NCBI GenBank assembly: GCA_016193395.1
Contig: JACPSH010000015.1
Span: forward strand, 37,858 to 101,857
Direction of reading: 5' to 3'
DNA length: 64,000 nucleotides
Source: Gammaproteobacteria bacterium
GTDB lineage: Bacteria > Pseudomonadota > Gammaproteobacteria > Eutrophobiales > Eutrophobiaceae
Of this stretch, positions 8,713 to 60,786 are shown in pieces. The notes beneath the pieces were generated by a model. It was not told the DNA's origin. It worked only from the letters and a program-made list of their open reading frames with translations, and made no database searches. The position numbers and the translations under genes were made by a program. Numbering within the stretch: position 1 is the stretch's first letter; the number at the start of each line of letters is the position of its first letter.

Positions 8713-8833
8713 CGCGCCAGGAGTGGCCGCCCGCCGGCCGGTTGGCGGCCTGCCGTGCTCTGACCAGTCCAGGACAGACTTGTTCAGCGTTTCCGCAGTG
8801 TGTCGTCCCGCGATGTTCTTGCGAAATTCCACG

Positions 8834-8950
8834 TCAGCGGGAACGTCATTCCGGGCCCGCCGCAGGCGGCGCCCGGAATCCAGCCTTCGTCAAGTGCTGT
8901 CTGGATTCCGGAACGCGGCTGCGCCGCTTCCGGAATGACGTCGTCGCGAC
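8834..8950. repeat. Long imperfect palindrome (arms ~45 bp) in the convergent intergenic region between the URO-D-like and ACS genes
   Basis: Arm 1 is GGGAACGTCATTCCGGGCCCGCCGCAGGCGGCGCCCGGAATCCAG. Arm 2 is CTGGATTCCGGAACGCGGCTGCGCCGCTTCCGGAATGACGTCGTC. The loop is ccttcgtcaagtgctgt. Confidence 0.6.
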
Positions 8951-8994
8951 GCGGGAATTGCACAAGATCATTGCGGGACGGTATAGCAGCAGCT

Positions 8995-9040
8995 TGATGC
9001 AAAAGTCCGACCATGGACTTTTGCATCACGCTGTTAGCAT
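8995..9040. repeat. 45-bp palindromic motif, copy 1 (overlaps the stop codon of the ADP-forming ACS gene)
   Basis: GATGCAAAAGTCCGACCATGGACTTTTGCATCACGCTGTTAGC has an 11-bp stem, TGCAAAAGTCC/GGACTTTTGCA. Confidence 0.75.
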
Positions 9041-11358
9041 TTGCTTTTCACGATCAGCGCATCCAGCGCCAGTACTCCGCTCGCACCCGCCCGCAACGGA
9101 TTGATATCCAACTCCTGGATCACCGGCTGCTCAACCAGCAGGCGCGAGATCGCGAGCAACGCCCGGATGATCGCTTGCTTGTCGACCGGCGGGCTGCCGC
9201 GCCAGCCATCCAGCAGGACCCGTGCCTTCAGCTCGGTGAGCATTTCCGCCGCATCCGCCTCGTCGAGCGGCACCAGCCGCATCGTGACGTCTTTCAGCGC
9301 TTCCGCCTGGGTACCCCCCATGCCGAGCAGTACCGCCGGACCGAATACCGGATCGCGAAGCCCGCCGACGATAAGATCGAGACCGGCGTTCGCCATCTTT
9401 TCGATCAGGTACGCGCGTTCGCGCAAAGGCGGGATCGCGTCGATCCGGCCGAGCGCCGCGGCGAGTTGATCGGCATCGCGAATGTTCAGATGGACGCCTC
9501 CCATTTCCGTCTTATGCAGTATGTCCACGTCCAGTACTTTGATCACGACCGGTTTCCGCAATCGCGCGAACGCGGCGCGCGCTTTCTCGTGGCCAAGGCA
9601 AACCGCGGATTCTGGCACCGGGATACCGATGGCGCGCAACAGGTCCTTGCCCTGCGCCTCGTTCAGCGCGCCGGCAGGCAGCGATGGCATCGCGGCGGTC
9701 TGGGTTATGGCGTCATCCCGGCGTTGTTTACGGTACCGGCATCGCGCGTCGTCGACGACCGCGCGCATCGCGCGGGCGGCCCGCTCGGGAGACCGGAACG
9801 GCACGACGCCCAGTTCGGCGAGCTGCCGCGCGGTCATGCGCATATCGTTATCCTCGCCGGCGGTACCGTAGATGACGGGTTTTGTGAGTCGTGCCTGCCG
9901 TTCCTTGAATAGCGCAATCGGATCCAGCACGGTCGGTTCGTGCAGGACGAATATCAGGATGGCGTCGATGCCTTCCTCTGCGGCGATAATGTCGAGCACG
10001 TTCCCGAATTCCGGCGTCGGCCGGCCGGCGTCGACCGGGTTGTTGATGTAGTGCATCGGCGGCAGCTCGCGCGCGATCCGGGCAATGCCGTCGGCGCTGA
10101 GTTTCGGCACGTCGACGCCGATGGACTTCAACTGATCCAGCATCAGCAGCCCCGCGCCGGCCTGGCCGATCAGAACGCCGACGCCCGGCGCCGGTTTGGG
10201 CGGCAGCCGGATCAGCGAGAGCGCGCTCGCGGCGTCAACCAGATCGTTCGAATTTTCCGCGATGACCGCGCCGGCCTGCCGGAAGGCCGCGACTTTCAGG
10301 TCGTAGGATCCGACCAGATTGCCGGTATGCGACTGCGCGAAGGCGCCGATTTCGTTGCGCCCGATCGTCAATGCCACGACCGGTTTCCGATCCGTCGCGC
10401 GCCGGATCGATTCGAACAGCCGGCGTCCGTCGCGGAATCCCTCCAGGTACAGCGCAATCACGCGCGTGTGCTCGTCGTCGGCGAGGTAATCGATGACGTC
10501 CGCCGCGTCGACATCAACCGCGTTGCCGAGGCCGACCGTCAGGCTGACGCCGAAACCGTCATTCTCCAGCATGCAAGCCAGGATCAGGCTCATGCCGCCG
10601 CTTTGCGACACAACCGCGATGGGCCCGGGTCCTAACTTCTGGTAGGACACCGAGAAACTCGCGACGAGCCGTTGCGGCGGGGCGGCATATCCGCCGGTAT
10701 TCGGCCCCAACATGCGGATCCCCGTCTTCCGGCAGATGTCCGCCAACCTGTCCTGCAGGCGTTGCCCTTCCTCGCCACTTTCGCCGAAGCCGCCGCCCAT
10801 GATGATGGCGGCGCCGGCCTGGATCGACGCGGCCTCCTGCAACAGATCCGGGCACGCCGCGGCCGGCACGGCGAACAACACCAGATCGACCGGCACGCCG
10901 ATCGCGGTCAACGACGGATACACGGGATGGCCGAGGATCGTCGTCTCCCGCGGATTGACCGGGTAGATCGCGCCGGCATAACTCTCCAGCAGCTGGACCG
11001 CCATATAGCCGGCTTTCCCCGGCGTCGCAGAGGCGCCGACAATCGCGATCGAGCGTGGCCGGAAAAGGCATTCGAGACCGTCTTTTTTCGTCATGACGCG
11101 GCTAGGATAATCGAAACCGGAGCGGCGGCGGGCGCGAGTGGAGCGGTCGATTGCCTCGTGGGCGATGTTGACCCCGCCGGACGGCAGTCCCTCGAGCTGC
11201 AAACGCGCATCCGTCCAGGAGAACTCTCGGCATGTCTGCGAGTAGTCATCCGGGTTCGGCACCACCTTCAGCGCCGCGGCAGTCTTGCGGATGGGATCCC
11301 AGACCATTGATTTCGTTTCCAGATTCGCAAGGACTATCACCGAAGGCAGGCACACCAT
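9034..11358 (-). CDS. Acetate--CoA ligase (ADP-forming) family acyl-CoA synthetase (fused alpha/beta; CoA-binding + ATP-grasp)
   Basis: The sequence ...CLFRPRSIAIVGASATPGKAGYMAV... is a CoA-binding domain and ...VIKVLDVDILHKTEMGGVHLNI... is an ATP-grasp domain. The architecture is typical of NDP-forming ACS. The start is uncertain: an in-frame Met at 11094 (MTKKDG...) precedes the first conserved domain, and the 88 residues upstream resemble an ANL-ligase N-terminus (see findings). Confidence 0.8.
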   Translation of the reverse strand: MVCLPSVIVLANLETKSMVWDPIRKTAAALKVVPNPDDYSQTCREFSWTDARLQLEGLPSGGVNIAHEAIDRSTRARRRSGFDYPSRVMTKKDGLECLFRPRSIAIVGASATPGKAGYMAVQLLESYAGAIYPVNPRETTILGHPVYPSLTAIGVPVDLVLFAVPAAACPDLLQEAASIQAGAAIIMGGGFGESGEEGQRLQDRLADICRKTGIRMLGPNTGGYAAPPQRLVASFSVSYQKLGPGPIAVVSQSGGMSLILACMLENDGFGVSLTVGLGNAVDVDAADVIDYLADDEHTRVIALYLEGFRDGRRLFESIRRATDRKPVVALTIGRNEIGAFAQSHTGNLVGSYDLKVAAFRQAGAVIAENSNDLVDAASALSLIRLPPKPAPGVGVLIGQAGAGLLMLDQLKSIGVDVPKLSADGIARIARELPPMHYINNPVDAGRPTPEFGNVLDIIAAEEGIDAILIFVLHEPTVLDPIALFKERQARLTKPVIYGTAGEDNDMRMTARQLAELGVVPFRSPERAARAMRAVVDDARCRYRKQRRDDAITQTAAMPSLPAGALNEAQGKDLLRAIGIPVPESAVCLGHEKARAAFARLRKPVVIKVLDVDILHKTEMGGVHLNIRDADQLAAALGRIDAIPPLRERAYLIEKMANAGLDLIVGGLRDPVFGPAVLLGMGGTQAEALKDVTMRLVPLDEADAAEMLTELKARVLLDGWRGSPPVDKQAIIRALLAISRLLVEQPVIQELDINPLRAGASGVLALDALIVKSKC

Positions 11359-11360
11359 GC

Positions 11361-11374
11361 TTGATCCCGATCAT
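11361..11374 (-). promoter_or_regulatory. FNR-like box TTGATcccgATCAt abutting the first ATG of the ADP-forming ACS ORF
   Basis: It is a 9/10 match. Its position is only consistent with a promoter if translation starts downstream (Met 11307 or 11094). Confidence 0.35.
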
Positions 11375-11574
11375 AATGCGGTTCCGAACCCGGTGCGGGA
11401 AACGCCCATTAATGCCTAAATGACGGCACCGCAACCTTAACAGGGTGATGTAAAACCCCGTTTAGCGTCACCCTGCGGCTTCCTGCGGACGGAACGCATC
11501 GCGTATTGAATACCTAAGTGTTTGATATGCGGAGCGAGGCCGAAGCTGAGTTTTGGCCGGAGCGAGATGTAAAA

Positions 11575-11617
11575 GTCCACGGATGGACTTTTGCATAAAC
11601 TTGTTAAGGGGGAAATC
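11575..11617. repeat. 45-bp palindromic motif, copy 2 (between the ACS 5' region and the PRTase gene)
   Basis: GATGTAAAAGTCCACGGATGGACTTTTGCATAAACTTGTTAAG matches copy 1 at ~36/43 positions, including the tail ...GCAT(C/A)A(C/A)C(G/T)TGTTA. Confidence 0.75.
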
Positions 11618-11633
11618 CGCGAGACAATATCAC

Positions 11634-12323
11634 ATGCGTGCCTGGCGTATTTTCTCGGATCGCATAGAGGCCGGACAGGATCTGGCAAAGGCGCTGGCCG
11701 TACACCGCGGCCGACCGGACGTGGTCGTGCTCGGACTGCCCCGGGGCGGCGTGCCGGTGGCGTTCGAGGTAGCCCGCTTTCTGGGGGCGCCGCTGGATGT
11801 ACTGATTGTGCGCAAGCTCGGTGTACCCGGGCATACCGAACTCGCCATGGGGGCCATCGCCACGGGCGGCATCCGCCTGCTGAACGACGAGGTCATCCAG
11901 GCACTGCAGATCCCGATGGAACAGATTGACCGGGTCGCCGCGCAGGAGCAGCGCGAAATGTCGCGGCGCGAAATGGCCTACCGCGGCGACCGGCCGCCGC
12001 TGGACCTGCGTGGCCATGTCACCATCGTCGTGGACGACGGCATGGCCACGGGTTCCACCATGCGCGCGGCCGTGCAGGCCCTGCAGCGGCGCAACGCGTC
12101 GAAGATCGTCGTCGCCGTTCCCCATGCGCCCGCCGACACGGTCGGAGAGTTGCGCGCGATGGGCGCGGAAGTGGTGTGCCTGGAAATGCCCGAGCCCTAT
12201 TTTTCCGTTGGATCGTGGTATCGGGAGTTTCCGCAGGTCGACGATGCCGAGGTCAGAAATCTCATGAAGAAGGCCGGGCGGCGGGCGTTGAAGAGCGGGA
12301 GAGCAGCCGGCGGGCAAACTTAG
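11634..12323 (+). CDS. Phosphoribosyltransferase family protein
   Basis: Translation: MRAWRIFSDRIEAGQDLA...VVLGLPRGGVPVAFEVARFLGAPLDVLIVRKLG...TIVVDDGMATGSTMRAA... The PRTase PRPP-binding motif VVDDGxATGST is present. Confidence 0.7.
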   Translation: MRAWRIFSDRIEAGQDLAKALAVHRGRPDVVVLGLPRGGVPVAFEVARFLGAPLDVLIVRKLGVPGHTELAMGAIATGGIRLLNDEVIQALQIPMEQIDRVAAQEQREMSRREMAYRGDRPPLDLRGHVTIVVDDGMATGSTMRAAVQALQRRNASKIVVAVPHAPADTVGELRAMGAEVVCLEMPEPYFSVGSWYREFPQVDDAEVRNLMKKAGRRALKSGRAAGGQT

Positions 12324-14041: not shown

Positions 14042-14058
14042 AGCTGATGTTTTCAGCT
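14042..14058 (+). promoter_or_regulatory. Inverted repeat AGCTGA-N5-TCAGCT ~70 bp upstream of fnr (candidate operator)
   Basis: It is a perfect 6-bp-arm palindrome in the glk/fnr divergent region. A wider imperfect inverted repeat (TAGCTGAT...ATGAGCTA) surrounds it. Confidence 0.3.
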
Positions 14059-14127
14059 CCCTGCGGATATGAGCTAAAATCGGCATGGACCGCCCGCTCC
14101 GGGCCGCCTGTACGGAAACGACCGCAA

Positions 14128-14871
14128 ATGGATGTACACGAACTAAAAATCTCCTGCCAGAAGTGCCGGCTCAGCGAGCTGTGCCTGCCGTATGGCCTGG
14201 AGTCAGAGGAGCTGGATCGCCTGGAGCATATCGTTCAGCGCCCGGCGCCGCTGCGGCGCGGCGAGGTCCTGTATCGCGCCGGCGGATCCTTCCATGCCAT
14301 CTATGCGGTCCGTTCCGGGGCCCTTAAGATTTTCTCCGGCTCGGAAGACGGGCACGAACAGATTTTGGGTTTTTATCTGCCCGGCGAACTGCTCGGCCTG
14401 GACGGCATGGACAAGGACCTCCACAAGTGCACCGCCGTGGCGCTCGAGACGAGTTCCGTATGCACCTTGCCGTTCAACCAGTTGAGCGTGCTGTGCGAAA
14501 AGATCCCGGGACTGCAGAAGCGCCTGTTCCGGCTCATCGGCCGGGAGATCGGCGTCGAACACGAATTGCTGCTGATGATGGGACAGAAGGACGCCGAGGA
14601 AAGGCTCGCCATCTTCCTGGTCACGCTGGCCGCCCGCTTCAAGAGGCGCGGCTACTCCCAGAGTGAATTCCGGCTGCCGATGAGCCGCCACGATCTCGCC
14701 AATTACCTCGGACTCACGCCCGAGACCGTGAGCCGGCTGTTTGGTCGTTTTCGCAAAAACGGGCTGATAGAGACCAACCGCAGTCTGGTCAAGCTCCTGG
14801 ACATGTCGCGTCTTGTAACGTTGTGCGCCGGCCCCGAGGATGCGGGCCGCCTGGCCGCCGTCATGAACTGA
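14128..14871 (+). CDS. fnr: Fnr/Anr-type oxygen-sensing CRP-family transcriptional regulator
   Basis: The N-terminal Cys cluster ISCQKCRLSELCLP plus an internal Cys in ...ETSSVCTLP correspond to the four [4Fe-4S] ligands of FNR. A C-terminal HTH (...DLANYLGLTPETVSRLFGRF...) is present. Overall similarity to E. coli FNR is close. Confidence 0.85.
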   Translation: MDVHELKISCQKCRLSELCLPYGLESEELDRLEHIVQRPAPLRRGEVLYRAGGSFHAIYAVRSGALKIFSGSEDGHEQILGFYLPGELLGLDGMDKDLHKCTAVALETSSVCTLPFNQLSVLCEKIPGLQKRLFRLIGREIGVEHELLLMMGQKDAEERLAIFLVTLAARFKRRGYSQSEFRLPMSRHDLANYLGLTPETVSRLFGRFRKNGLIETNRSLVKLLDMSRLVTLCAGPEDAGRLAAVMN

Positions 14872-14894: not shown

Positions 14895-14908
14895 TTGATC
14901 CAGATCAG
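14895..14908 (+). promoter_or_regulatory. Near-consensus FNR box TTGATccagATCAg upstream of the CBS-pair gene
   Basis: It is a 9/10 match to TTGAT-N4-ATCAA. It lies ~115 bp upstream of ATG 15017 and directly downstream of the fnr stop. Confidence 0.5.
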
Positions 14909-17979: not shown

Positions 17980-18447
17980 ATGGAATCCATCCCCGCCGGA
18001 CACGAGACCGGCAGCATCGGTGAGGGCGCGCCGCCGCGCTGGGAACATTTCGAGCACAAGGCGGATATCGGCGTGCGCGGCTTTGGCCGCACGCTCGCCG
18101 AATCCTTCGAACAGGCGGCGCTTGCGCTTACGGCGGTCGCCACCGATCCCGCCTCGGTGCAGGCCTCCGACATAGTGCAAGTCGAATGCCGCGCCGCGGA
18201 CACGGAACTGTTGCTGGCGGACTGGTTGAACACGATTATTTTCGAAGCGTCCACGCGCGGCATGCTGTTCGGGCGTTTCGCGGCGCAAATCAACGATGGC
18301 CATCTGCGCGGACAGTTGTACGGTGAACCGGTGGATCGGTTGCGCCACCAGCCGGCGGTCGAGGCGAAGGGCGCCACCTATACAGAGCTGCGCGTCGCGC
18401 GGCAACTCGACGGTCTCTGGGTCGCCCAGTGCGTTATTGATGTCTGA
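17980..18447 (+). CDS. Archease (RtcB activator/chaperone)
   Basis: The motifs FEHKADIGVRGFGRTLAESFEQAA... and the C-terminal ...AKGATYTELRV...WVAQCVIDV match the archease fold. It sits immediately upstream of rtcB. Confidence 0.75.
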   Translation: MESIPAGHETGSIGEGAPPRWEHFEHKADIGVRGFGRTLAESFEQAALALTAVATDPASVQASDIVQVECRAADTELLLADWLNTIIFEASTRGMLFGRFAAQINDGHLRGQLYGEPVDRLRHQPAVEAKGATYTELRVARQLDGLWVAQCVIDV

Positions 18448-18640
18448 AGCGCCGATAGGTTGCGGGATCGATGGCCGCCAATCGAGTAGCTTGCTGTATT
18501 CATGTCGCAATGGCCGCCTATCCGGGGGCGGGTCGGCCCGGCGTTCATCCGGCGGCGATGAGCGGCGCGCGGGCCAGGGACGGTGCAGCGCGACGCGACC
18601 GCAGCGAGCGCGGCCGGGACGCAGCGCGAGCGGGAGCCGG

Positions 18641-18676
18641 ATGAATCCGGCCGGACCGCCCGTTGCGAGGGACTAA
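18641..18676. repeat. Stand-alone copy of the 'tail' module ATGAATCCGGCCGGACCGCCCGTTGCGAGGGACT between archease and rtcB
   Basis: It is near-identical to 39466-39500. It is preceded by a degenerate GC-rich stretch (18560-18640) and followed by an AT-rich TTGAAAAA element. Confidence 0.7.
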
Positions 18677-18679
18677 CAG

Positions 18680-18755
18680 GTTGTTGAAAAATGGCGGCGC
18701 ATCCTGCACCGCTTTATCAGGCCGTTGAAAAGGCTTTTTCAACAGCCTGCTAACG
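18680..18755. repeat. AT-rich 'TTGAAAAA' element (family copy)
   Basis: GTTGAAAAATGGCGGCGCATCCTGCACCGCTTTATCAGGCCGTTGAAAAGGCTTTTTCAACAGCCTGCTA. It is homologous to 33926-33990 (...ATTGAAAAATGCCGGTACATCCCTGCACCG...CGAAAAACGCTGTTTTTCAACAGCCTGCTA). Confidence 0.75.
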
Positions 18756-18853
18756 GAAGCGGGCACCCGGAGTCCGCCTAGAACGCAGGGATTTTTCAAA
18801 CGAGTACCCCGTAAGCCGCCTTGGGTGGATGATTCGTTGACTGGAGCCGAGAA

Positions 18854-20284
18854 ATGCGCCTCGACAACCTGGAACGCGTATCGGATATTTGCTGGCGGCT
18901 TGAGCCACACGGCGCGATGCGCGTGCCCGTCATTATTTATGGCGACGAGGCGTTGCTGCGGGGGATGGACGACAAGGTGGCCGAACAGGCCGCGAATGTC
19001 ACCATGCTGCCCGGGATCGTGAATGCCGTGTACGCGATGCCGGACGCACACTGGGGCTACGGCTTCCCCGTCGGCGGCGTGGCCGCCTTCGACGCCGACG
19101 AGGGCGGAGTCGTCTCCGCGGGCGGCGTGGGTTTCGATATCTCCTGCGGCGTGCGCACCCTGCATACCGGCCTGCGCCGCGAGCAACTGGAACCGGTCAA
19201 GACGCGGTTGGCCGAGGAACTGTTCCGGACCATCCCCGTCGGACTCGGCAGCACCGGCCGCATCGATCTCGGCGCCGCGGAGATGGATGCGATGCTCCGG
19301 GGCGGTGCGCGCTGGGCGGTGGAGCAGGGTTATGGCGAAGAGCGCGACCTGGAACGGATCGAGGAGCGTGGCCGGATGGCCGGGGCCCGCCCCGAGCAGG
19401 TGTCCGCCCATGCCAAGCAGCGACAGCAGCGGGAAATGGGCACGCTCGGATCGGGCAATCACTACCTCGAAGTGCAGCAGGTTGTCGATATACTCGATCC
19501 CGCCGCGGCGGGCGCATTCGGGCTCGGCAGGGGCGACGTGGTCGTCAGCATCCATTGCGGCTCGCGCGGGCTCGGACACCAGATCGGAACCGATTTCCTC
19601 AAGGCCATGGTCACGGCCGCCCCGCGCCACGGCATCGTCCTGCCGGATCGCGAACTCGCCTGCGCGCCATTGTCATCGGAACTGGGCCAGAACTACCTGG
19701 GCGCCATGCGCGCCGCGATCAACTGCGCGCTTGCCAACCGCCAGATCATCACGCACCTTGCGCGCGAAGTCTTCCGGCGCATGCTGCCCACAGCGCGGCT
19801 CGATCTGTTTTACGATGTTTCGCACAATACCTGCAAACTGGAAGACCATCGCGTGGCCGGGCGCAACCGGCGCCTGTACGTGCATCGAAAGGGCGCCACG
19901 CGCTCGTTCGGCACCGGCCATGCCGACCTGCCGGAGGCCTTCCGCGAAGCCGGCCAGCCGGTATTGATCGGCGGGTCGATGGGCACCGCCTCGCACATCC
20001 TCGCGGGCGATCCCGACAACGACGAGAAGTCGTTCGCCTCCGCGTGCCACGGCGCCGGCCGGAGCATGAGCCGCCGCCAGGCATTGAAGACCTGGCAGGG
20101 GCGGAGCGTGGTGGACGAGCTGGCTGGCCGCGGCATTATCGTGCGCAGCCCTTCGCTGCGCGGCGTCGCGGAAGAAGCCCCGGGCGCGTACAAGGACGTG
20201 GACGCGGTAGTGGCCGCAACGGAACGGGCGGGTCTCGCGCGGCGCGTTGCGCGGCTGGAGCCGCTGCTGTGCATAAAGGGATGA
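18854..20284 (+). CDS. rtcB: RNA-splicing ligase RtcB (3'-phosphate/5'-hydroxyl nucleic acid ligase)
   Basis: The motifs PDAHWGYGFPVGGV, GGVGFDISCGVR and HNTCKLE...HRKGATRSF match RtcB active-site regions. The length is 476 aa. Confidence 0.9.
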   Translation: MRLDNLERVSDICWRLEPHGAMRVPVIIYGDEALLRGMDDKVAEQAANVTMLPGIVNAVYAMPDAHWGYGFPVGGVAAFDADEGGVVSAGGVGFDISCGVRTLHTGLRREQLEPVKTRLAEELFRTIPVGLGSTGRIDLGAAEMDAMLRGGARWAVEQGYGEERDLERIEERGRMAGARPEQVSAHAKQRQQREMGTLGSGNHYLEVQQVVDILDPAAAGAFGLGRGDVVVSIHCGSRGLGHQIGTDFLKAMVTAAPRHGIVLPDRELACAPLSSELGQNYLGAMRAAINCALANRQIITHLAREVFRRMLPTARLDLFYDVSHNTCKLEDHRVAGRNRRLYVHRKGATRSFGTGHADLPEAFREAGQPVLIGGSMGTASHILAGDPDNDEKSFASACHGAGRSMSRRQALKTWQGRSVVDELAGRGIIVRSPSLRGVAEEAPGAYKDVDAVVAATERAGLARRVARLEPLLCIKG

Positions 20285-20299
20285 GCTTCGCACCGGATC

Positions 20300-20480
20300 C
20301 CTCACGAACGCCAGGATCCGGGCGGGCGGGTTCTGTCATCGGACGCACCTGTCCGTGCTCGCTCCGGTCCCCTCCGCTTGCGCGCGGAGCAGGTGCGCCC
20401 GATGCCACCCGCCCGGTTTACGTGTCGGGGCGCGACAGGTGAACACGAAGGCGGTACCCGGCGACAGGACCCGTCCGCCC
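20300..20480. repeat. GC-rich imperfect-palindromic extragenic element (family copy, ~1.5 units) between rtcB and polX
   Basis: ...CCGTGCTCGCTCCGGTCCCCTCCGCTTGCGCGCGGAGCAGGTGCGCCCGATGCCACCCGCCCGG... followed by ...ACGAAGGCGGTACCCGGCGACAGGACCCGTCCG. It is homologous to the copies at 25195, 33727, 34022 and 39356. Confidence 0.75.
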
Positions 20481-20521
20481 GAAGCCTTGAACGTTTATGA
20501 ATAATCCGGGGCAACCAGCCG

Positions 20522-22225
20522 ATGCCCGTGCAGAATGAACACGTGGCTGAAATACTGGACGAGATCGCCGATCTGCTCGCCATCCAGGATGCCAACCCGT
20601 TCCGCGTGCGGGCGTACCACAATGCGGCGCGCACCGTGCGGGGGCTTTCCCGCGAACTGCATGATCTGATCGCACGCGGCAAGGACCTGACCGATCTTCC
20701 GGGGATAGGCGATGATCTCGCCGGCAAGATCAGGGAGATCGTCGGGACCGGCGCGTGCAGGGCCCTGGAAAAACTGCATCGACAGGTCCCGCACGAACTG
20801 GAGGAACTGCTCGCCGTCCCCGGGCTGGGGCCAAAACGGGTCAAGGCGCTGTTCTACGACCTGCGGATCCGCACCACGCAGCAGCTCGAGAAGGCGGCGC
20901 GCGCCGGCCGCCTGCGCAAGTTGCCGGGATTCGGCCAGAAGCTGGAACAGCGCATTCTTCAGGCCGTCGCCGCACGCCAGTCCGGGACGCGGCGCTTCAG
21001 CATCGACGTCGCGGAAGAATCCGGCGGAAAGCTCGCGGCCTATCTCGGATTGGTGCCGGGCACGGGCAAGGCCATCATTGCGGGCAGCTTTCGCCGCGGC
21101 CGTGAAACGGTCGGCGACCTCGACATCCTGGTGACGACCTCGCGGCCGGCGGCGGTCATGGAGCGATTCGCGGCTTACGACCAGGTGGCGCGCGTCACGT
21201 CCCGGGGCGCCACGCGTGCCTCCGCCGTCCTTCGGAACGGGCTGCAGGTGGATCTGCGGGTCGTGCCGAAGCAGAGTTTCGGCGCCGCCCTGCACTATTT
21301 CACCGGGGGCAAGGCGCATAACATCCGGGTCCGGACCCTCGGCCAGAAGTTCGGCCTGAAAATCAACGAATATGGCGTGTTCCGCGGAGCGAGACGCGTC
21401 GCCGGAGCGACTGAAGCATCCGTGTTCAAGTCCGTGGGCCTGCCCTTGATACCGCCAGAATTAAGGGAAGACCGCGGCGAGATCGAGGCAGCGCGCGCGC
21501 ACCGCCTGCCGCGGCTGGTCGAAGAAGGCGACCTCAGGGGCGATCTGCACGTCATCGCGAACGGGCGGGACGATCTGGTTGCGATGGCCATCGCCGCAAA
21601 GCGGCGGGGCCTGCGCTATATCGCCTTCACGATCCGGCAGGGACCGGACGCGCCGGCGGACGCCGTGCTCCGGCAACTCGACCGTATCGACCAGATCCGT
21701 GAACGCGCTGATGGCATGGTACTGCTCAAGGGGATCGAAGCCGAGATTCCCGAGGACGGCAGGCTGGACCTCCCGACCGAGGTGCTTGCGCGCCTCGATC
21801 TTCTGATCGGCGCGGCGCACGGGCAGTTCGAACTGACTCGCGCCAGGCAAACGGCGCGGCTGCTGCGAGCCATGGACAGCCCCTGTTTCACCATCCTGGC
21901 CCATCCGGGCGGACGCCTCCTGCCGGAGCGCGATGCCTGCTCGGTGGACATGGAGCGGATCGTGCGCGCCGCGCGCGTGCGCGGTTGTTTCCTGGAACTG
22001 AACTCACAACCGCAACGGCTCGACCTGGCCGACGTCCATTGCCAGATGGCGAAGGCGGAGGGCGTCCTGGTCAGCATCAACAGCGGCGCCCGCCAAGGGG
22101 AGGACTTCCGGGATCTGCGTTTCGGAATAACCCAGGCGCGGCGCGGATGGCTCGAAAAGGACGATGTGCTGAATACGCGTCCGCACGCCGCGTTGAAGCG
22201 GCTGCTCCGGCGGACGATGGACTGA
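20522..22225 (+). CDS. polX: Family X DNA polymerase with C-terminal PHP (3'-5' exonuclease/phosphoesterase) domain
   Basis: The N-terminal helix-hairpin-helix regions (LLAIQDANPFRVRAYHNAARTV, LPGIGDDLAGKIREIV, VPGLGPKRVKALF), the pol-beta palm motif GSFRRGRETVGDLDILV and the C-terminal PHP histidine motifs (HxH...) together indicate a PolX-PHP protein. Confidence 0.9.
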   Translation: MPVQNEHVAEILDEIADLLAIQDANPFRVRAYHNAARTVRGLSRELHDLIARGKDLTDLPGIGDDLAGKIREIVGTGACRALEKLHRQVPHELEELLAVPGLGPKRVKALFYDLRIRTTQQLEKAARAGRLRKLPGFGQKLEQRILQAVAARQSGTRRFSIDVAEESGGKLAAYLGLVPGTGKAIIAGSFRRGRETVGDLDILVTTSRPAAVMERFAAYDQVARVTSRGATRASAVLRNGLQVDLRVVPKQSFGAALHYFTGGKAHNIRVRTLGQKFGLKINEYGVFRGARRVAGATEASVFKSVGLPLIPPELREDRGEIEAARAHRLPRLVEEGDLRGDLHVIANGRDDLVAMAIAAKRRGLRYIAFTIRQGPDAPADAVLRQLDRIDQIRERADGMVLLKGIEAEIPEDGRLDLPTEVLARLDLLIGAAHGQFELTRARQTARLLRAMDSPCFTILAHPGGRLLPERDACSVDMERIVRAARVRGCFLELNSQPQRLDLADVHCQMAKAEGVLVSINSGARQGEDFRDLRFGITQARRGWLEKDDVLNTRPHAALKRLLRRTMD

Positions 22226-25178: not shown

Positions 25179-25194
25179 GTCGAAGAGCGGCGAT

Positions 25195-25315
25195 TGACGG
25201 ACGGGTGGCACCGGGGACTCCTGTTCCGCGCGCAGCGAGAGGGCCTCTCCAGCGGCTGGTTCAAGCGAGCACGGACAGGAGTGCCCGGTGACAGGACCCG
25301 TCCGCTGACCCGCGT
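25195..25315. repeat. GC-rich imperfect-palindromic extragenic element between convergent glgP and malQ
   Basis: GGACGGGTGGCACCGGGGACTCCTGTTCCGCGCGCAGCGAGAGG...GAGCACGGACAGGAGTGCCCGGTGACAGGACCCGTCCG. The outer arms are reverse complements (GGACGGGTGGCACCGGG / CCCGGTGACAGGACCCGTCC). Confidence 0.8.
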
Positions 25316-26757
25316 CAGCATCGCCCGTACAAACCGTTGAGGTGCCGGAGCCAGCCGCCGAGTTCGGGTCTGATCAGGTTCCAATCCAGGCAGTACTTCC
25401 AGTTGCCATCCACCGTGCCGGGCGTGTTGGTCCGGTGCGCGGCCCCGAGCACCAGCAGGTCCTGCATCGGCAGGATTGCAAATCGACACACGGAACCCAG
25501 CGCGGCGTTGATCAGCGGCCACGGCATCGGCTCGGGCGGCTGGCGCAGATAGTCCATCACTTTCATCTTTTGCCCTGTATCGAGCGCTTCATACCACCCG
25601 ACGGTCGTGTTGTTGTCGTGCGTGCCGGTATACACGACGGCCTCCGGCTCGAGGTTGTGCGGCAGGTACGGGTTGCTCGCGTCGCCGTCGAAGGCGAACT
25701 GCAGCACCTTGACGCCCGGCAACCGGAATTTCTTGCGCAGCTTCTCCACAGGCGGCGTGATGATCCCGAGGTCCTCGGCGATGCACGGCAGGGGCCCCAG
25801 CGACTTTCGCAGGGTACGAAGCAGCGCTTCTCCCGGCACCGGCCGCCACTCCCCACGCTGCGCGGTCGGGCAGTCCGCCGGAATTTCCCAGAGAGCTTCC
25901 AGTCCGCGGAAATGATCGATGCGGACGATGTCGAAGAGTTGCAGCTGCCGGTGCATGCGCTCAACCCACCACTGGAACCCCTGTTCCCGCAGGCGACCCC
26001 AGTGATAAACGGGGTTGCCCCAGCGCTGGCCGGTCGAGGAGAAGTAATCCGGCGGCACGCCGGCGACGACCGTCGGTTGTCCGCGCGCATCGAGCTGGAA
26101 ATACTCCGAGTGGGACCAGACGTCTGCGCTGTCATGGGCGACAAACAGGGGCATATCGCCGAAGAGCAGAATGCCGAGCGCCTTGGCGATCGATCGCATT
26201 TCGTTCCACTGGCACGAGAACAGGAATTGCGCGAAACACCACCGTTCGATTGCATCCGCGTGATCCGAATGGAACGCCGCAAGCGCCCCGGCTTTGCGGT
26301 CGCGCAATCCGTCGGGCCAATTCCACCACGGTTGGTTGCCGCAGACGTCCCGGATCGCCATGAACAGGGCATAATCGTTGAGCCAGTATCGTGATTGCTC
26401 CCGAAATGCGGCGAAGCCGGCGCGGTCCTCTGTCCCCGCGCGCGCATTGAACGCGGCCAGAGCGGCGCCCCCGCCTTCACCGCCAAACCAGGCAGTCTGG
26501 GCAAGGCGCTGGCTGCTGATCAGTCCCGGGTGGCCGGCGAACGCGGAGCAACCCTGATAAGGAGAAGAATGGGCATCGACCGGTTGCACGGGCAACAACT
26601 GCCAGATCCTGAAACCGGTATCCGACAGGAATTGCAGGAATCGCCGGGCCGGATCGCCCAGCCCGCCGCCATCGGACGGTACGGCGAGCGCGCTCAGCGG
26701 CAGCAGGATCCCCGCGCGCCGGCGTTCGAACCAGTCTCCGTGCCGTGCGCGACTCAT
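25315..26757 (-). CDS. malQ: 4-alpha-glucanotransferase (amylomaltase, GH77)
   Basis: The N-terminus RRAGILLPLSAL is typical of MalQ. The internal motifs ...GVPPDYFSSTGQRWGNPVYHW... and ...IAEDLGIITPPV... match GH77 catalytic regions. Confidence 0.9.
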   Translation of the reverse strand: MSRARHGDWFERRRAGILLPLSALAVPSDGGGLGDPARRFLQFLSDTGFRIWQLLPVQPVDAHSSPYQGCSAFAGHPGLISSQRLAQTAWFGGEGGGAALAAFNARAGTEDRAGFAAFREQSRYWLNDYALFMAIRDVCGNQPWWNWPDGLRDRKAGALAAFHSDHADAIERWCFAQFLFSCQWNEMRSIAKALGILLFGDMPLFVAHDSADVWSHSEYFQLDARGQPTVVAGVPPDYFSSTGQRWGNPVYHWGRLREQGFQWWVERMHRQLQLFDIVRIDHFRGLEALWEIPADCPTAQRGEWRPVPGEALLRTLRKSLGPLPCIAEDLGIITPPVEKLRKKFRLPGVKVLQFAFDGDASNPYLPHNLEPEAVVYTGTHDNNTTVGWYEALDTGQKMKVMDYLRQPPEPMPWPLINAALGSVCRFAILPMQDLLVLGAAHRTNTPGTVDGNWKYCLDWNLIRPELGGWLRHLNGLYGRC

Positions 26758-33688: not shown

Positions 33689-33726
33689 AGCCGGCCGGCT
33701 ACATTTCGAAATGTTGCCGGACGGGT

Positions 33727-33825
33727 CCTGTCACCGGGCGCCCCTTTTCCGTGCTCGTGCGGTCCCCTCACTTGCGCGCGGAAGAAGGGGAGTGCCCGGT
33801 GCCACCCGTCCGTTCGACTCTAGCA
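33727..33825. repeat. GC-rich palindromic extragenic element (opposite orientation) downstream of glgA
   Basis: GGACGGGTCCTGTCACCGGGCGCCCC...CCGTGCTCGTGCGGTCCCCTCACTTGCGCGCGGAAGAAGGGGAGTGCCCGGTGCCACCCGTCCG. It equals the reverse-complement orientation of the 39356 copy. Confidence 0.8.
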
Positions 33826-33995
33826 TGATGTTGAAAAACGATTTCCATATCGTTTTTCAACTCGCAAAGCAAAAATGCGATTTCCGCTTTGCTCCATTTT
33901 TCAATCGCTTGCCGCGATTGAAAAATGCCGGTACATCCCTGCACCGGGCGCAGGCTGTCGAAAAACGCTGTTTTTCAACAGCCTGCTAGAGCGTG
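33826..33995. repeat. Cluster of four AT-rich hairpins carrying the TTGAAAAA motif (composite element)
   Basis: Hairpin 1 is GTTGAAAAACGAT-ttccat-ATCGTTTTTCAAC (perfect). Hairpin 2 is GCAAAGC...GCTTTGC. Hairpin 3 is CATTTTTCAATCGC-ttgcc-GCGATTGAAAAATG (perfect). Hairpin 4 is GCAGGCTGTCGAAAAACG/CTGTTTTTCAACAGCCTGC. The region is much lower in GC than its surroundings. Confidence 0.8.
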
Positions 33996-34021: not shown

Positions 34022-34140
34022 CTGACCGGGCGGGTGACATCGGGTCACCGCTCTTCGCGCGCAGCGTAAGCGAGCACGAAGACGGTACCCGATGGCAGGA
34101 CCCGGCCGCGCTGAAGCGGGAATGAATCCGGCCGGACCTT
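34022..34140. repeat. GC-rich palindromic element plus 'ATGAATCCGGCCGGACC' tail module
   Basis: GACCGGGCGGGTGACATCGGGTCACCGCTCTTCGCGCGCAGCGTAAGCGAGCACGAAGACGGTACCCGATGGCAGGACCCGGCCG is followed by GGGAATGAATCCGGCCGGACCTTGCACTACTGA. Confidence 0.7.
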
Positions 34141-39047: not shown

Positions 39048-39160
39048 AGGCGGATCGCCGGGTGCTTGTTCCTCTCAGCCCGTCGGATCGGGCGGTCCGG
39101 CCGGCTTCATCCTGCCCCATCATAGAGGGCGGATCGCCGGGTAGTCGTTCCGCTCATTTT
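39048..39160. repeat. Two ~32-bp direct repeats, GGCGGATCGCCGGGT(g/a)(c/g)T(t/c)GTTCC(t/g)CTCA, 80 bp apart, upstream of rph
   Basis: The copies are at 39048-39080 and 39128-39160. They lie in a 600-bp structured divergent region that also contains the perfect hairpin GCGAATCA-ttcc-TGATTCGC at 39206-39225. Confidence 0.55.
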
Positions 39161-39355
39161 CCGGCCGCTGGGACGTCTTGGCCGGGCTTATTCCGCTTTC
39201 GCTTCGCGAATCATTCCTGATTCGCTCGCGGCTAGCGCAGCGCACTTCACCGTCCTGGCTGCGTGCGCTGCTTAAGCCGCTCCACAAGCCCGGCCAAGCC
39301 GTCTTTACGCGGCCAGACTTCAGCAACGGTACGGCCGGATTCACGTGCAGGAGAT

Positions 39356-39500
39356 AAACGGACGGGTGGCGCCGGGCACTCCCCTGTTCCGCGCGCAAGC
39401 GAGGGGACCGAGCGAGCACGGACAGGGGTGCCCGGTGACAGGACCCGGCCGCCCACCAACGCAAACATGATTCCGGCCGGACCGCCCGTTACGTGGGACT
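39356..39500. repeat. GC-rich palindromic element plus tail module in the rph/yicC divergent region
   Basis: GGACGGGTGGCGCCGGGCACTCCCCTGTTCCGCGCGCAAGCGAGGGGACCGAGCGAGCACGGACAGGGGTGCCCGGTGACAGGACCCGGCCG is followed by the tail CATGATTCCGGCCGGACCGCCCGTTACGTGGGACTC. Confidence 0.8.
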
Positions 39501-39633
39501 CATCGAAACAAATACCCGGCAGGCCGCCGGTGGCAACACTCGCGGCAGTTATTTAGTATGGGGCCGGACCCGTGCTCCGTTTCAGCAGCCCCTGACATGC
39601 AGCCGGGTCGATCGAACACAGAGGAGACCCGGC

Positions 39634-43700: not shown

Positions 43701-43709
43701 TCGCGCCCG

Positions 43710-43983
43710 GCAGACAATTGCTCCTGCGATTTCTGCATTTCCGCCATCCCTGGCGGTCATCCCTGGCGGCCATCCCGGGCGGTCATCCCGGGCGGTCGCA
43801 GAAAATTGCTCCTGCATTTTCTGCATTTCCGCCGTCCCTGGCGGTCATCCCGGGCGGTCATCCCTGGCGGTCATCCCGGGCGGTCGCAGAAAATTGCTCC
43901 TGCATTTTCTGCATTCCCGCCATCCCTGGCGGTCGCAGAAAATTGCTCCTGCATTTTCTGCATTCCCGCCATCCCTGGCGGTC
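43710..43983 (+). repeat. Nested tandem-repeat array: four 36-bp units, each followed by 4, 4, 1 and 1 copies of a 13-bp sub-repeat
   Basis: The 36-mer is GCAGA(A/C)AATTGCTCCTGC(G/A)TTTTCTGCATT(T/C)CCGCC. The 13-mer is ATCCC(T/G)GGCGG(T/C)C. The units start at 43710, 43798, 43886 and 43935. The 36-mer contains a 9-bp-stem hairpin, GCAGAAAAT/ATTTTCTGC. The array fills the gap between the spoT stop (43700) and the ridA core. Confidence 0.9.
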
Positions 43984-44363
43984 GGAAAATCATCTCGACC
44001 GACGCGGCGCCCCACGCGATCGGGACCTACTCGCAGGCGGTCCAGGTCGGCAATACCGTTTACCTCTCCGGGCAGATCCCGCTCGACCCCGCGACCATGC
44101 GACTCGTCACCGGCGATGTGCGCGGCCAGATCGACCAGGTATTCCGGAACCTCGCCGCGTTGGCTGGAGCCGCGGGCGGCAGCCTGGCGGATGTCGTCAA
44201 GCTGAATGTCTACCTCACCGATCTCGAATATTTCCCGCTGGTCAATGAGGTCATGGAGCAATACTTCCGGAAGCCCTATCCGGCACGCGCCGCGGTCGGC
44301 GTCGCCGAATTGCCGAAAGGGGCACTGGTCGAGATCGAAGGCATCCTGATGCTGGAGTCCTGA
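43806..44363 (+). CDS. ridA: RidA (YjgF/TdcF) family reactive-intermediate deaminase. The 5' end and start codon are uncertain because the gene abuts a tandem-repeat array.
   Basis: The conserved core [35 protein letters not shown]...[17 protein letters not shown] starts at ~43986. No ATG, GTG or TTG codon occurs at the expected position. The only in-frame upstream start-like codon (TTG at 43806) lies inside the repeat array. Confidence 0.65.

Positions 44364-59742: not shown

Positions 59743-59744
<2 letters not shown>
59629..59744. repeat. AT-rich long inverted repeat between convergent grx-like/cysH and cysB (bidirectional terminator-like)
   Basis: The left arm is AAGTGGAAAGttgaAAGTGTAAAG. 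The right arm is CTTTACACTTTCCACTT. They flank ~75 nt of GC-rich sequence. The right arm overlaps the cysB stop codon. Confidence 0.5.

Positions 59745-60786
<1,042 letters not shown>

What the first reader, a model, noticed from the sequence alone, without database searches (positions are those of the whole stretch)
8985..11620. Two copies of a 45-bp palindromic motif bracket the ADP-forming acyl-CoA synthetase gene
GATG(C/T)AAAAGTCC...GGACTTTTGCAT(C/A)A(C/A)C(G/T)TGTTA(G/A) occurs at 8995-9040, overlapping the ACS stop codon. It occurs again at 11575-11617, ~220 bp upstream of the first ACS ATG and just before the PRTase gene. Both copies carry an 11-bp perfect stem, TGCAAAAGTCC/GGACTTTTGCA.

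The bracketing arrangement suggests one of three things. They could be operator sites for a dedicated regulator. They could be paired recombination or attachment sites that delimit a ~2.6-kb cassette. They could be members of a small dispersed palindrome family.
Basis: seen in the sequence. Interest (0 to 1): 0.5.

Follow-up and report, generated by a model that had tools for sequence, protein, structure and literature searches.

The report
Miniature transposon copies around ACS gene
The two palindromes are copies of a small non-coding mobile DNA element (a MITE with the ends and insertion footprint of IS5-family insertion sequences) that is scattered through related genomes. Their position on either side of the acyl-CoA synthetase gene is coincidence, not a regulatory or cassette signal.

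Summary
The core AAAAGTCC-N6-GGACTTTT occurs twice in 64 kb, against 0.07 expected.

The palindrome arms are IS5-family terminal inverted repeats (CAGGnTGATGCAAAAGTCC).
- Copy 2 (11441-11603) is a full 163-bp MITE flanked by a perfect 4-bp duplication, TTAA/TTAA.
- It aligns end to end with at least 11 copies in a related Gammaproteobacteria MAG.
- It is missing from the same promoter in three syntenic relatives.
- Copy 1 (8987-9033) is a 47-bp short form, two repeats back to back, sitting in the CTAA that holds the ACS stop codon.

Family evidence:
- A strict pattern found 25 and 18 loci in two MAGs, nearly all intergenic.
- 18 of 32 repeat pairs carry identical YTAR flanks, the known IS5 footprint.
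- Metagenome contigs hold 1266-1324-bp elements with the same ends, the same duplications and an IS5-family transposase (NF033581, 241 bits).

ACS is syntenic with its URO-D and thiolase neighbours in relatives that lack the repeats.

One oddity remains. The five hairpins covary, and two loops keep ANGGA, the CsrA-type motif.

This is an ordinary new member of a known kind.

The parts
8987..9033 (.). Copy 1. This is the short, palindromic form of the MITE: two IS5-type terminal repeats back to back. The arms ATGCAAAAGTCC (8997-9008) and GGACTTTTGCAT (9015-9026) enclose the loop 9009-9014. The canonical left repeat starts at 8990, preceded by an extra CAG.
   Evidence: nhmmer matches the family profile at E 5e-9. 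Both arms match the IS left end 15 of 15. The loop reads ATGGTC on the minus strand, one base from the family's ANGGA.
9034..9037 (.). Target tetranucleotide TTAG (CTAA on the minus strand) at the right flank of copy 1. It contains the ACS stop codon TAA (9034-9036, minus strand). The left flank is ATAG (8983-8986), a 3 of 4 match.
   Evidence: The duplication is imperfect for this copy. Relatives' ACS proteins end within 2 residues of the same point.
11441..11603 (+). Copy 2. This is a full-length 163-bp MITE lying between the FNR box and the PRTase start codon. It has five hairpins.
- Its left terminal repeat is 11441-11459.
- A second GGA loop lies at 11487-11489.
   Evidence: It aligns end to end with JACORW copies. 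nhmmer gives E 1.7e-49 over profile positions 1-169. The element is absent from L002, L004 and L005. As RNA the plus strand folds at -78.6 kcal/mol (z -8.3), the minus strand at -47.3 (z -2.0).
11437..11440 (.). Left copy of the 4-bp target-site duplication TTAA of copy 2.
   Evidence: The tetramer is identical to 11604-11607.
11604..11607 (.). Right copy of the 4-bp target-site duplication TTAA of copy 2.
9034..11094 (-). ADP-forming acyl-CoA synthetase gene proper (686 aa, from Met89 of the long ORF).
   Evidence: Pfam domains begin at residue 102 of the 774-aa ORF. Homologues are 680-686 aa. The gene is syntenic with URO-D and thiolase in L129 and with thiolase in L130.
11131..11307 (-). 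Remnant of the first 59 codons of an AMP-forming acyl-CoA synthetase, fused in frame to the ACS ORF. It marks the true synteny breakpoint between the two repeats.
   Evidence: 42 of 59 residues are identical to the N-terminus of the 585-aa AMP-binding protein of L002, E 3e-28.
11361..11374 (.). FNR/CRP-type box TTGATcccgATCAT in the divergent promoter. It is conserved in relatives. It is context, not part of the element.
   Evidence: An fnr-type gene lies at 14047-14871.
11634..12323 (+). Phosphoribosyltransferase gene. Copy 2 lies in its presumed 5' leader.
   Evidence: P0001 is 100% identical and 229 aa long. Pfam assigns PF00156.
18677..18749 (.). A further 73-bp MITE of a sister subfamily, with repeats CAGGTTGTTGAAAAA / TTTTTCAACAGCCTG and duplication CTAA/CTAA.
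33824..33985 (-). A further 162-bp MITE of a sister subfamily with the same five-hairpin plan. Its duplication is CTAG/CTAG.
   Evidence: nhmmer gives E 6.3e-13 over profile positions 1-167.

Best explanation
Both motifs are copies of a non-autonomous DNA transposon (a MITE). Its ends are the terminal inverted repeats of a group of IS5-family insertion sequences, CAGGnTGATGCAAAAGTCC.

A DDE transposase supplied in trans by a full-length element would bind these ends. It would cut the target with a 4-bp stagger at YTAR and insert the element, leaving a 4-bp duplication.

The visible palindrome exists because a terminal repeat is followed directly by an inverted copy of itself. In the full 163-bp form (copy 2) this makes the right-end hairpin. 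In the 47-bp form (copy 1) the two repeats are all that is left.

Copy 2 landed in a TTAA between the FNR-dependent promoter and the PRTase start codon. Copy 1 sits in the CTAA that contains the ACS stop codon, and the duplicated target tetranucleotide keeps a stop codon in place.

The two insertions are independent events, and their bracketing of ACS is coincidental.

Shown: family membership, repeat identity with IS5-family elements, target duplications, presence or absence among relatives, and dispersal in related genomes.

Inferred: mobilisation in trans, the presence of a partner IS in this genome, and any effect on PRTase or ACS expression.
For: 1. A genome-collection scan with an 18-base pattern found 78 loci. 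Of these, 25 come from one Gammaproteobacteria MAG (JACORW01, which also carries a 61%-identical PRTase) and 18 from another (JAWOIE01). Smaller numbers come from Sedimenticola, Rhodanobacteraceae, Salinisphaeraceae and other high-GC MAGs. The roughly 17 unrelated hits equal the chance expectation.

2. Window 11438-11606 aligns end to end with these copies (nhmmer).

3. Of 32 repeat pairs, 18 have identical flanking tetramers, all YTAR or ATAA. Window elements carry TTAA/TTAA, CTAA/CTAA and CTAG/CTAG. IS5 duplicates 5'-YTAR-3' (PMC5009759).

4. Metagenome contigs carry elements of 1306, 1324 and 1266 bp with the same ends. Their duplications are CTAG/CTAG (three independent loci) and TTAA/TTAA. 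Each has one 362-aa ORF with DUF772 and DDE_Tnp_1, matching NCBIfam NF033581 'IS5 family transposase' at 241 bits against a cut-off of 140. The MITE shares only the terminal 15-21 bp with them.

5. The inner AAGTCC of the arms is also present in the right end of E. coli IS5 (GGAAGGTGCGAACAAGTCC).

6. The element is absent from the orthologous PRTase promoter in L002, L004 and L005 and from the ACS 3' end in L129 and L130. L005 has a partial copy at a different site.

7. By my ORF-based gene calls, 66 of 68 family hits are intergenic, and many abut stop codons.
Against: - The source genome was not in the genome collection, so only two copies, plus two of sister subfamilies, are seen in its 64 kb.
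- No transposase, integrase or recombinase domain was found in the window ORFs scanned (most long ORFs; a few, e.g. 17980-22225, were named from their translations only) or in the loci around MITE copies. A partner IS in the same cell is therefore not shown.
- The IS-bearing contigs have no taxonomic label.
- The flanks of copy 1 are only a 3 of 4 match (ATAG/TTAG, with an extra CAG), so its own transposition is not demonstrated. It could be a deletion derivative.
- No empty-site allele was found in metagenomes.
- The internal hairpins and their conserved loops are not explained by a simple model in which only the terminal repeats matter.
Confidence: 0.88

Rival explanations
1. The palindromes are operator sites for a dedicated dimeric transcription factor that co-regulates ACS and PRTase.
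For: The motif is a long, AT-rich palindrome in a GC-rich genome. One copy lies in a promoter region next to an FNR box.
Against: - The motif is absent from the orthologous promoter in three syntenic relatives that keep the FNR box.
- The other copy is at a gene's 3' end.
- Dozens of copies lie beside unrelated genes in other MAGs.
- The copies carry target duplications.
- The Pfam scans found no regulator dedicated to this locus. The regulators seen are an FNR-type gene at 14047-14871 and a LysR-type gene at 59743-60717.
Confidence: 0.02
2. The two copies are paired recombination or attachment sites, or the ends of a composite transposon, that moved ACS as a 2.6-kb cassette.
For: There are two direct copies 2570 bp apart around one gene. 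A rearrangement did happen inside the interval, shown by the AMP-binding gene remnant.
Against: - ACS keeps its URO-D and thiolase neighbours in relatives that have no family repeat.
- Copy 2 has its own TTAA/TTAA duplication, and the outer flanks of the pair differ.
- The breakpoint, at about 11095-11130, lies at neither copy.
- The interval also contains the old promoter and the gene remnant, which belong to the PRTase side.
- No integrase domain was found in the window ORFs scanned.
- The integron core sites were checked by eye only. The ends do not fit: GTTAGCA and GTTAAGG against GTTRRRY, and CCTTAAC against RYYYAAC.
Confidence: 0.02
3. They are REP or REPIN-type extragenic palindromes spread by a RAYT (Y1/HUH) transposase through single-stranded hairpin DNA.
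For: The copies are intergenic and palindromic, and there are many per genome. The stems covary while the loops stay fixed, which suits a protein that reads hairpins. Mismatches are strand-biased, 42 G.T against 14 A.C.
Against: - There are clear 4-bp YTAR duplications. As far as I know, REPs leave none.
- The ends are identical to those of DDE-type IS5-family elements.
- No multi-copy ORF was found in the loci around MITE copies, and no transposase domain was found in the window ORFs scanned; the loci were not searched for RAYT genes specifically.
- There is no conserved GTAG-like 5' tetranucleotide.
Confidence: 0.03
4. Whatever their origin, the copies now act at the RNA level. This rival is not exclusive of the best explanation. 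Copy 1 would act as a 3'-end hairpin that protects or terminates the convergent ACS and URO-D transcripts. Copy 2 would act as a structured 5' leader, possibly binding CsrA/Rsm, that modulates PRTase translation.
For: - The hairpins are very stable.
- Copy 2 folds 31 kcal/mol better on the PRTase sense strand than on the antisense strand.
- Two loops keep ANGGA. The copy 2 hexaloop, ACGGAU closed by C-G, is identical to the RsmE-bound hcnA hairpin (PMC11882435).
Against: - There is no orientation bias relative to co-directional flanking genes, 10 against 10 by my count.
- No U-tract follows the stems, and no terminator call was made.
- The strand asymmetry could come from strand-biased C-to-T mutation.
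- Covariation in DNA palindromes can arise by template switching.
- There are no expression data.
Confidence: 0.12

Closest known systems
IS5-family insertion sequences (IS5 group) and MITEs derived from them
   Same: - 4-bp target duplication at YTAR (PMC5009759).
- Terminal repeats of 15-21 bp, identical to those of 1.27-1.32-kb elements that encode an NF033581 IS5-family DDE transposase.
- The inner repeat motif AAGTCC is shared with the right end of E. coli IS5.
- The element is small, non-coding, multi-copy and intergenic.
   Different: - Only the terminal repeats are shared with the IS. The 125 bp of internal sequence are unrelated to it.
- The outer repeat bases differ from E. coli IS5 (CAGG... 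against GGAAGG...).
- No partner IS has been demonstrated in the same genome.
Structured bacterial MITEs such as Correia elements (Neisseria) and ERIC/IRU (own knowledge, and the review PMC10969869 listed but not read)
   Same: Both are 100-170-bp intergenic repeats with terminal inverted repeats. Both are often co-transcribed with neighbours and fold into stable RNA hairpins. Both occur in full-length and internally deleted forms.
   Different: In those elements the structure comes mainly from pairing of the two ends. Here there are five local hairpins with covarying stems and fixed loops. The target here is YTAR, whereas it is TA for Correia elements.
REP / BIME / REPIN elements mobilised by RAYT
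   Same: Both are extragenic palindromes found at gene ends, in high copy number. The short 44-47-bp form resembles a REP doublet.
   Different: These copies have target-site duplications and DDE-type IS ends. No RAYT gene was seen in the window, and the other loci were not searched for one.
CsrA/RsmE-binding hairpins (hcnA leader; RsmY/RsmZ sponge RNAs)
   Same: An ANGGA motif sits in a hexaloop closed by C-G. There are two such loops about 95 nt apart, plus a third GGA in a linker. The motif is kept in 50 of 58 oriented copies (PMC11882435).
   Different: This is a resemblance only. Binding is untested, no csrA gene is present in the sequence held, the element is a transposon and not an sRNA gene, and it shows no orientation bias.

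Membership tests
MITE (non-autonomous DNA transposon) | Small size (under about 300 bp) with no coding capacity for a transposase | tested here: met
   The elements are 163 bp (copy 2) and 47 bp (copy 1).
MITE (non-autonomous DNA transposon) | Terminal inverted repeats | tested here: met
   The ends are CAGGGTGATGTAAAAC... and ...GACTTTTGCATAAACTTG in copy 2. The family consensus is CAGGnTGATGCAAAA(G/C)T.
MITE (non-autonomous DNA transposon) | Target-site duplication flanking each copy | tested here: met
   Copy 2 is flanked by TTAA/TTAA. Across the family, 18 of 32 repeat pairs have identical tetramers. Copy 1 matches only 3 of 4 (ATAG/TTAG), so it is inconclusive for that copy alone.
MITE (non-autonomous DNA transposon) | Many dispersed copies with unrelated flanks in one genome | tested here: met
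   There are 25 loci in MAG JACORW01 and 18 in JAWOIE01. In the source genome only the 64-kb window could be read. It holds 2 copies plus 2 of sister subfamilies.
MITE (non-autonomous DNA transposon) | Presence/absence polymorphism at orthologous sites | tested here: met
   The element is absent upstream of PRTase in L002, L004 and L005 and downstream of ACS in L129 and L130. No exact empty-site allele was found.
MITE (non-autonomous DNA transposon) | An autonomous element with the same ends that encodes a transposase | tested here: met
   L155, L138, L148, L157 and L169 carry elements of 1266-1324 bp with the same ends, duplications and a DDE ORF. Whether such an element is in the same genome was not testable.
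IS5 family (IS5 group) derivative | 4-bp duplication with target consensus YTAR | tested here: met
   The flanking tetramers are TTAA, CTAA, TTAG, CTAG and one ATAA. The IS5 rule is taken from PMC5009759.
IS5 family (IS5 group) derivative | Partner transposase is an IS5-family DDE enzyme | tested here: met
   The ORF matches NCBIfam NF033581 at 241 bits against a cut-off of 140, and Pfam DUF772 plus DDE_Tnp_1.
IS630/Tc1/mariner derivative | TA dinucleotide duplication, with terminal repeats starting directly after the TA | tested here: not met
   The bases either side of the TA vary together at the two ends (ATAA/ATAA, CTAA/CTAA, TTAG/TTAG). That fits a 4-bp duplication and not TA plus repeat bases. 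The resemblance to the Himar1 repeat is coincidental.
REP/REPIN (RAYT-mobilised) | No target duplication; a RAYT gene flanked by the repeats | tested here: not met
   Duplications are present. No transposase domain was found in the window ORFs scanned and no multi-copy ORF in the loci; RAYT genes were not searched for specifically in the loci.
Integron attC / gene cassette | RYYYAAC...GTTRRRY core sites, tandem cassette array, adjacent intI | tested here: not met
   The copies are dispersed singly between housekeeping genes. ACS is syntenic with its neighbours. No integrase domain was found in the window ORFs scanned. By eye, the ends do not fit the core sites (GTTAGCA and GTTAAGG against GTTRRRY; CCTTAAC against RYYYAAC).
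Transcription-factor operator | Conserved at orthologous promoters of the regulated genes | tested here: not met
   The motif is absent in L002, L004 and L005, while the FNR box is conserved.
Intrinsic terminator | GC-rich stem followed by a U-tract | tested here: not met
   No terminator-like site was called at either copy. The bare core does match AT-rich phage terminators, but those are unrelated.
CsrA/Rsm-binding RNA hairpin | ANGGA in the loop of a stem-loop; protein binding | tested here: inconclusive
   The sequence feature is present in 50 of 58 oriented copies, and GGA is invariant in a second loop. Binding and transcription cannot be tested with these tools.

The most novel reading that the evidence does not exclude
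This MITE family may be more than an inert pair of transposon ends. It may be a mobile structured-RNA module. Its five hairpins covary across subfamilies from different gammaproteobacterial lineages. Two hexaloops, and one linker, keep the CsrA/RsmE recognition motif ANGGA. The copy 2 loop is identical to the RsmE-bound hcnA hairpin. If these copies are transcribed, they could recruit or titrate CsrA. Transposition would then spread post-transcriptional control, for example putting the hypoxia-linked PRTase leader under Csr control.
Probability: 0.07. Interest if true: 0.6.

Novelty: new member of a known kind. Interest (0 to 1): 0.2.

Why it matters
For annotation, this result removes a false lead. 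The two palindromes are neither a regulon signature nor a cassette boundary. The same reasoning explains at least two more repeats in this window.

It defines a previously unlabelled IS5-type MITE family, with candidate parent IS elements, in uncultured high-GC Gammaproteobacteria. That is useful for masking repeats, for understanding why these MAG assemblies break into contigs, and for reading insertions at stop codons and in promoters.

The only point of wider interest is unproven. The internal hairpins are conserved by covariation, and the loops look like CsrA sites.

Tried and rejected
1. **Bare-core scan of viral contigs.** The 45 hits were all AT-rich phage terminators of the type AAAAAGTCCC...GGGACTTTTT. 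They are unrelated, and they showed that the core alone is not specific enough.

2. **IS630/mariner origin.** The ends looked like TA + ACAGGTTG...AAGTCC, close to the Himar1 repeat (15 of the first 20 bases; the sequence was confirmed). I rejected this because the bases flanking the TA vary together at both ends, which means a 4-bp duplication.

3. **DosR/NarL-type or FNR half-site reading of AAGTCC/GGACTT.** This was dropped once the motif proved absent from orthologous promoters.

4. **Rfam.** There was no hit at the gathering threshold in the whole window. Only sub-threshold chance hits appeared on the element.

5. **blastn against plasmids, with the element and with an idealised palindrome.** Nothing relevant was found.

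6. **Multi-copy ORFs and 0.6-3.5-kb repeat pairs in the loci around MITE copies.** No transposase was found. The one candidate pair, in L081, encloses yggT, proC and yggS.

7. **Empty-site allele of copy 2 in metagenomes.** There were 0 hits.

8. **Small peptide MDFCI(T/N)LL, encoded from the ATG in both copies.** This is a trivial consequence of the repeated DNA. PRTase homologues and the NCBI gene call start at 11634.

9. **csrA gene in the held sequence.** None was found.

10. **Transposase homologue search for a taxonomic label.** The family is very abundant (7976 proteins at E <= 1e-60, mostly on 1.3-2-kb contigs), but no organism names were returned.


Full report
**1. Observation**

The two motifs exist.
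- The core AAAAGTCC-N6-GGACTTTT occurs at 9001-9022 and 11571-11592 and nowhere else in the window. The chance expectation is 0.07.
- The shared stretch is 51 nt at 75% identity, in direct orientation (D7).
- Copy 1 has 22-nt arms (8987-9008 and 9015-9036). A third arm lies inverted at 11438-11459.
- Copy 1 overlaps the ACS stop codon (TAA, 9034-9036, minus strand). Copy 2 ends 27 bp before the PRTase ATG at 11634.
- Minor corrections: copy 2 is about 9 nt left of the stated coordinates, and its stem has one G.T mismatch (TGTAAAAGTCC).
- Both hairpins are far more stable than shuffled sequence.

**2. Genes around the motifs**

- ORF 9034-11358 (minus strand) is an ADP-forming acyl-CoA synthetase, but its Pfam domains start only at residue 102. 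Homologues are 680-686 aa.
- Residues 18-76 are 71% identical (E 3e-28) to the N-terminus of a 585-aa AMP-forming synthetase. That gene occupies this position, divergent from PRTase, in relative L002.
- The true ACS therefore starts at about 11094. The stretch 11131-11307 is a gene remnant that marks a synteny break.
- To the right lie PRTase, HPF-CSD, glucokinase, an FNR-type regulator, a CBS protein, an APH-AAA kinase, a baeRF/host-attachment protein, archease, RtcB and PolX (for the first seven; archease, RtcB and PolX are named from the ORF translations and the called genes of the syntenic relative L005).
- Every remaining window ORF that I scanned is a housekeeping gene. No transposase or integrase domain was found in the ORFs scanned.

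**3. Orthologous loci**

- Relatives with 82%, 76% and 67% identical PRTase (L002, L004, L005) keep the order PRTase-HPF-glucokinase-FNR-CBS; the L002 contig ends within the third gene, and L003 is only a 1.4-kb fragment.
- They also keep an FNR box, TTGATcccgATCAT (window 11361-11374). None has the palindrome.
- Their spacer from the box to the ATG is about 90 bp, against about 260 bp here. The window therefore carries an insertion of about 170 bp.
- ACS orthologues (72% and 70% identity) are convergent with URO-D and thiolase, or with thiolase alone, as in the window. Their spacers are 76-138 bp, and the family profile finds no copy there.
- ACS therefore belongs with its left-hand neighbours and is not a mobile cassette.

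**4. A dispersed family**

- A scan of one genome per species with AAAGTCC-N6-GGACTTTTGCA returned 78 loci.
- Of these, 25 come from MAG JACORW01 and 18 from JAWOIE01. There are 5 from a Sedimenticola MAG, and others from Rhodanobacteraceae, Salinisphaeraceae, Sulfurifustaceae and unnamed Gammaproteobacteria.
- About 17 plainly unrelated hits remain, which is the number expected by chance.
- JACORW01 also carries the 61%-identical PRTase P0007.
- Window 11438-11606 aligns over its whole length with the JACORW copies. A profile built from them finds 121 matches.
- The profile also detects copy 1 (E 5e-9) and a diverged full-length copy at 33823-33988 (E 6e-13).
- A 73-bp relative lies at 18677-18749.
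- By my ORF-based gene calls, 66 of 68 hits are intergenic. Many start within 1-2 bp of the last sense codon of a gene.

**5. Mechanism**

- Across the window and the loci, 18 of 32 repeat pairs are flanked by identical tetranucleotides: TTAA, CTAA, TTAG, CTAG and ATAA.
- The bases on either side of the central TA change together at the two ends. This rules out a TA duplication of the IS630/mariner type and shows a 4-bp YTAR duplication.
- That is the documented footprint of IS5 (PMC5009759).
- Copy 2 is flanked by TTAA/TTAA. The two sister elements are flanked by CTAA/CTAA and CTAG/CTAG.
- Copy 1 has ATAG(+CAG)/TTAG, an imperfect match.
- A metagenome scan with the repeat itself found full-length elements:
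  - 1306 bp in three independent contigs, each with CTAG/CTAG;
  - 1324 bp with TTAA/TTAA;
  - 1266 bp.
- Each encodes one 362-aa protein with DUF772 and DDE_Tnp_1. The protein scores 241 bits on NCBIfam NF033581 'IS5 family transposase', against a cut-off of 140.
- The MITE shares only the terminal 15-21 bp with these elements.
- Read from the K-12 genome, the right end of E. coli IS5 is GGAAGGTGCGAACAAGTCC. It shares the inner AAGTCC.
- YTAR includes TAA and TAG, and TA is rare in a 64% GC genome. This plausibly explains why copies so often sit on stop codons, as copy 1 does.

**6. Why the rival readings fail**

- An operator should be conserved at orthologous promoters. This motif is not.
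- A cassette or composite transposon should carry one duplication around the whole unit and should move ACS away from its neighbours. Instead copy 2 has its own duplication, the outer flanks differ, ACS is syntenic with its neighbours, and the only breakpoint lies at neither copy.
- REP/RAYT elements do not leave duplications.
- The hairpins lack U-tracts.

**7. What remains unexplained**

- The element has five local hairpins. On 23 copies from several lineages, 95.4% of cells are paired, against 82% after shuffling and about 40% when partners are slid. Of 45 pairs, 28 show compensatory changes.
- Deviations from Watson-Crick pairing are G.T rather than A.C on the element's plus strand: 42 against 14 overall, and 17 against 3 in the JACORW-type subfamily.
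- Copy 2 folds at -78.6 kcal/mol (z -8.3) on the PRTase sense strand, against -47.3 (z -2.0) on the other strand.
- The stems vary, but two loops do not. GGA at 11487-11489 is invariant in all 23 copies.
- The loop of the right-end hairpin is ANGGA in 50 of 58 oriented copies.
- In copy 2 that loop is C-ACGGAU-G, the same as the RsmE-bound hcnA hairpin (PMC11882435).
- Against a host-level RNA role, orientation relative to co-directional neighbours is even, 10 against 10.
- Covariation in DNA palindromes can arise by template switching, and the strand bias could be mutational.
- I therefore treat the CsrA-like reading as a low-probability lead and not as a finding.

**8. Verdict**

The thing is an IS5-type MITE, with one full copy and one minimal palindromic copy. 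It is a new member of a well-known kind. Its local consequences are modest: a longer, highly structured PRTase leader and a strong hairpin at the ACS 3' end. Neither effect has been tested.

Noticed in passing
window 11095-11358 (minus strand): The ACS ORF carries an in-frame N-terminal extension. It is the remnant of the first 59 codons of an AMP-forming acyl-CoA synthetase (71% identical to the L002 protein). The ADP-forming ACS has therefore replaced that gene behind the conserved FNR-box promoter. The 757-aa public gene call is probably a fusion artefact or a true promoter capture.
   Followed up: partly
window 11361-11374 and 14895-14908: FNR/CRP-type boxes (TTGATcccgATCAT; TTGATccagATCAg) lie upstream of PRTase and of the CBS-domain gene, near an fnr-type gene (14047-14871). 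The first box is conserved in L002, L004 and L005. The cluster (HPF-CSD, glucokinase, CBS, RtcB/archease, glycogen genes) looks like a low-oxygen or dormancy regulon.
   Followed up: partly
window 8804-8980: A 177-bp imperfect palindrome (80-nt arms, 73% complementary) lies directly beside copy 1, in the URO-D/ACS spacer. It is absent from the 76-138-bp spacers of relatives, and no other copy occurs in any sequence held. It may be a different foldback or MITE insertion.
   Followed up: partly
window 20320-20418, 25189-25321, 33718-33814, 34069-34138, 39346-39530 (fragments at 18641-18674 and 39049-39110): A second intergenic repeat family of about 100-130 nt occurs in both orientations. It is GC-rich (...GGGTGCCCGGTGACAGGACCCG...). 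It has at least five copies in the window and none in the loci from other MAGs. It is often adjacent to the IS5-type MITEs. Rfam gives no match.
   Followed up: partly
window 43700-43985: Tandem repeats of 49-88 bp (hairpin GCAGAAAATTGCTCCTGCATTTTCTGC followed by CCCTGGCGGTC units) lie between spoT and ridA. The same unit is found at many sites in MAG JACORW01, often nested inside copies of the MITE.
   Followed up: partly
L129 8058-8092: In a relative, the ACS stop codon is followed by a small hairpin, GACACAAGTCC-ttcgt-GGACTTGTGTC. It shares the AAGTCC/GGACTT core. It could be an eroded old copy of the same family, or an ordinary terminator-like hairpin.
   Followed up: no
L005 5947-6004: A partial family copy (left repeat plus the first two hairpins) starts immediately after the TGA stop of the fnr-type gene in a relative. 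The window has no copy there. The family is therefore present at different sites in related genomes.
   Followed up: partly
L152 and L159 (metagenome contigs), positions about 371-419 and 927-975: A 41-bp short palindromic form (two repeats back to back) is flanked by a perfect CTAG/CTAG. This suggests that the minimal form, like window copy 1, can itself be inserted, or that it keeps its duplication after internal deletion.
   Followed up: no
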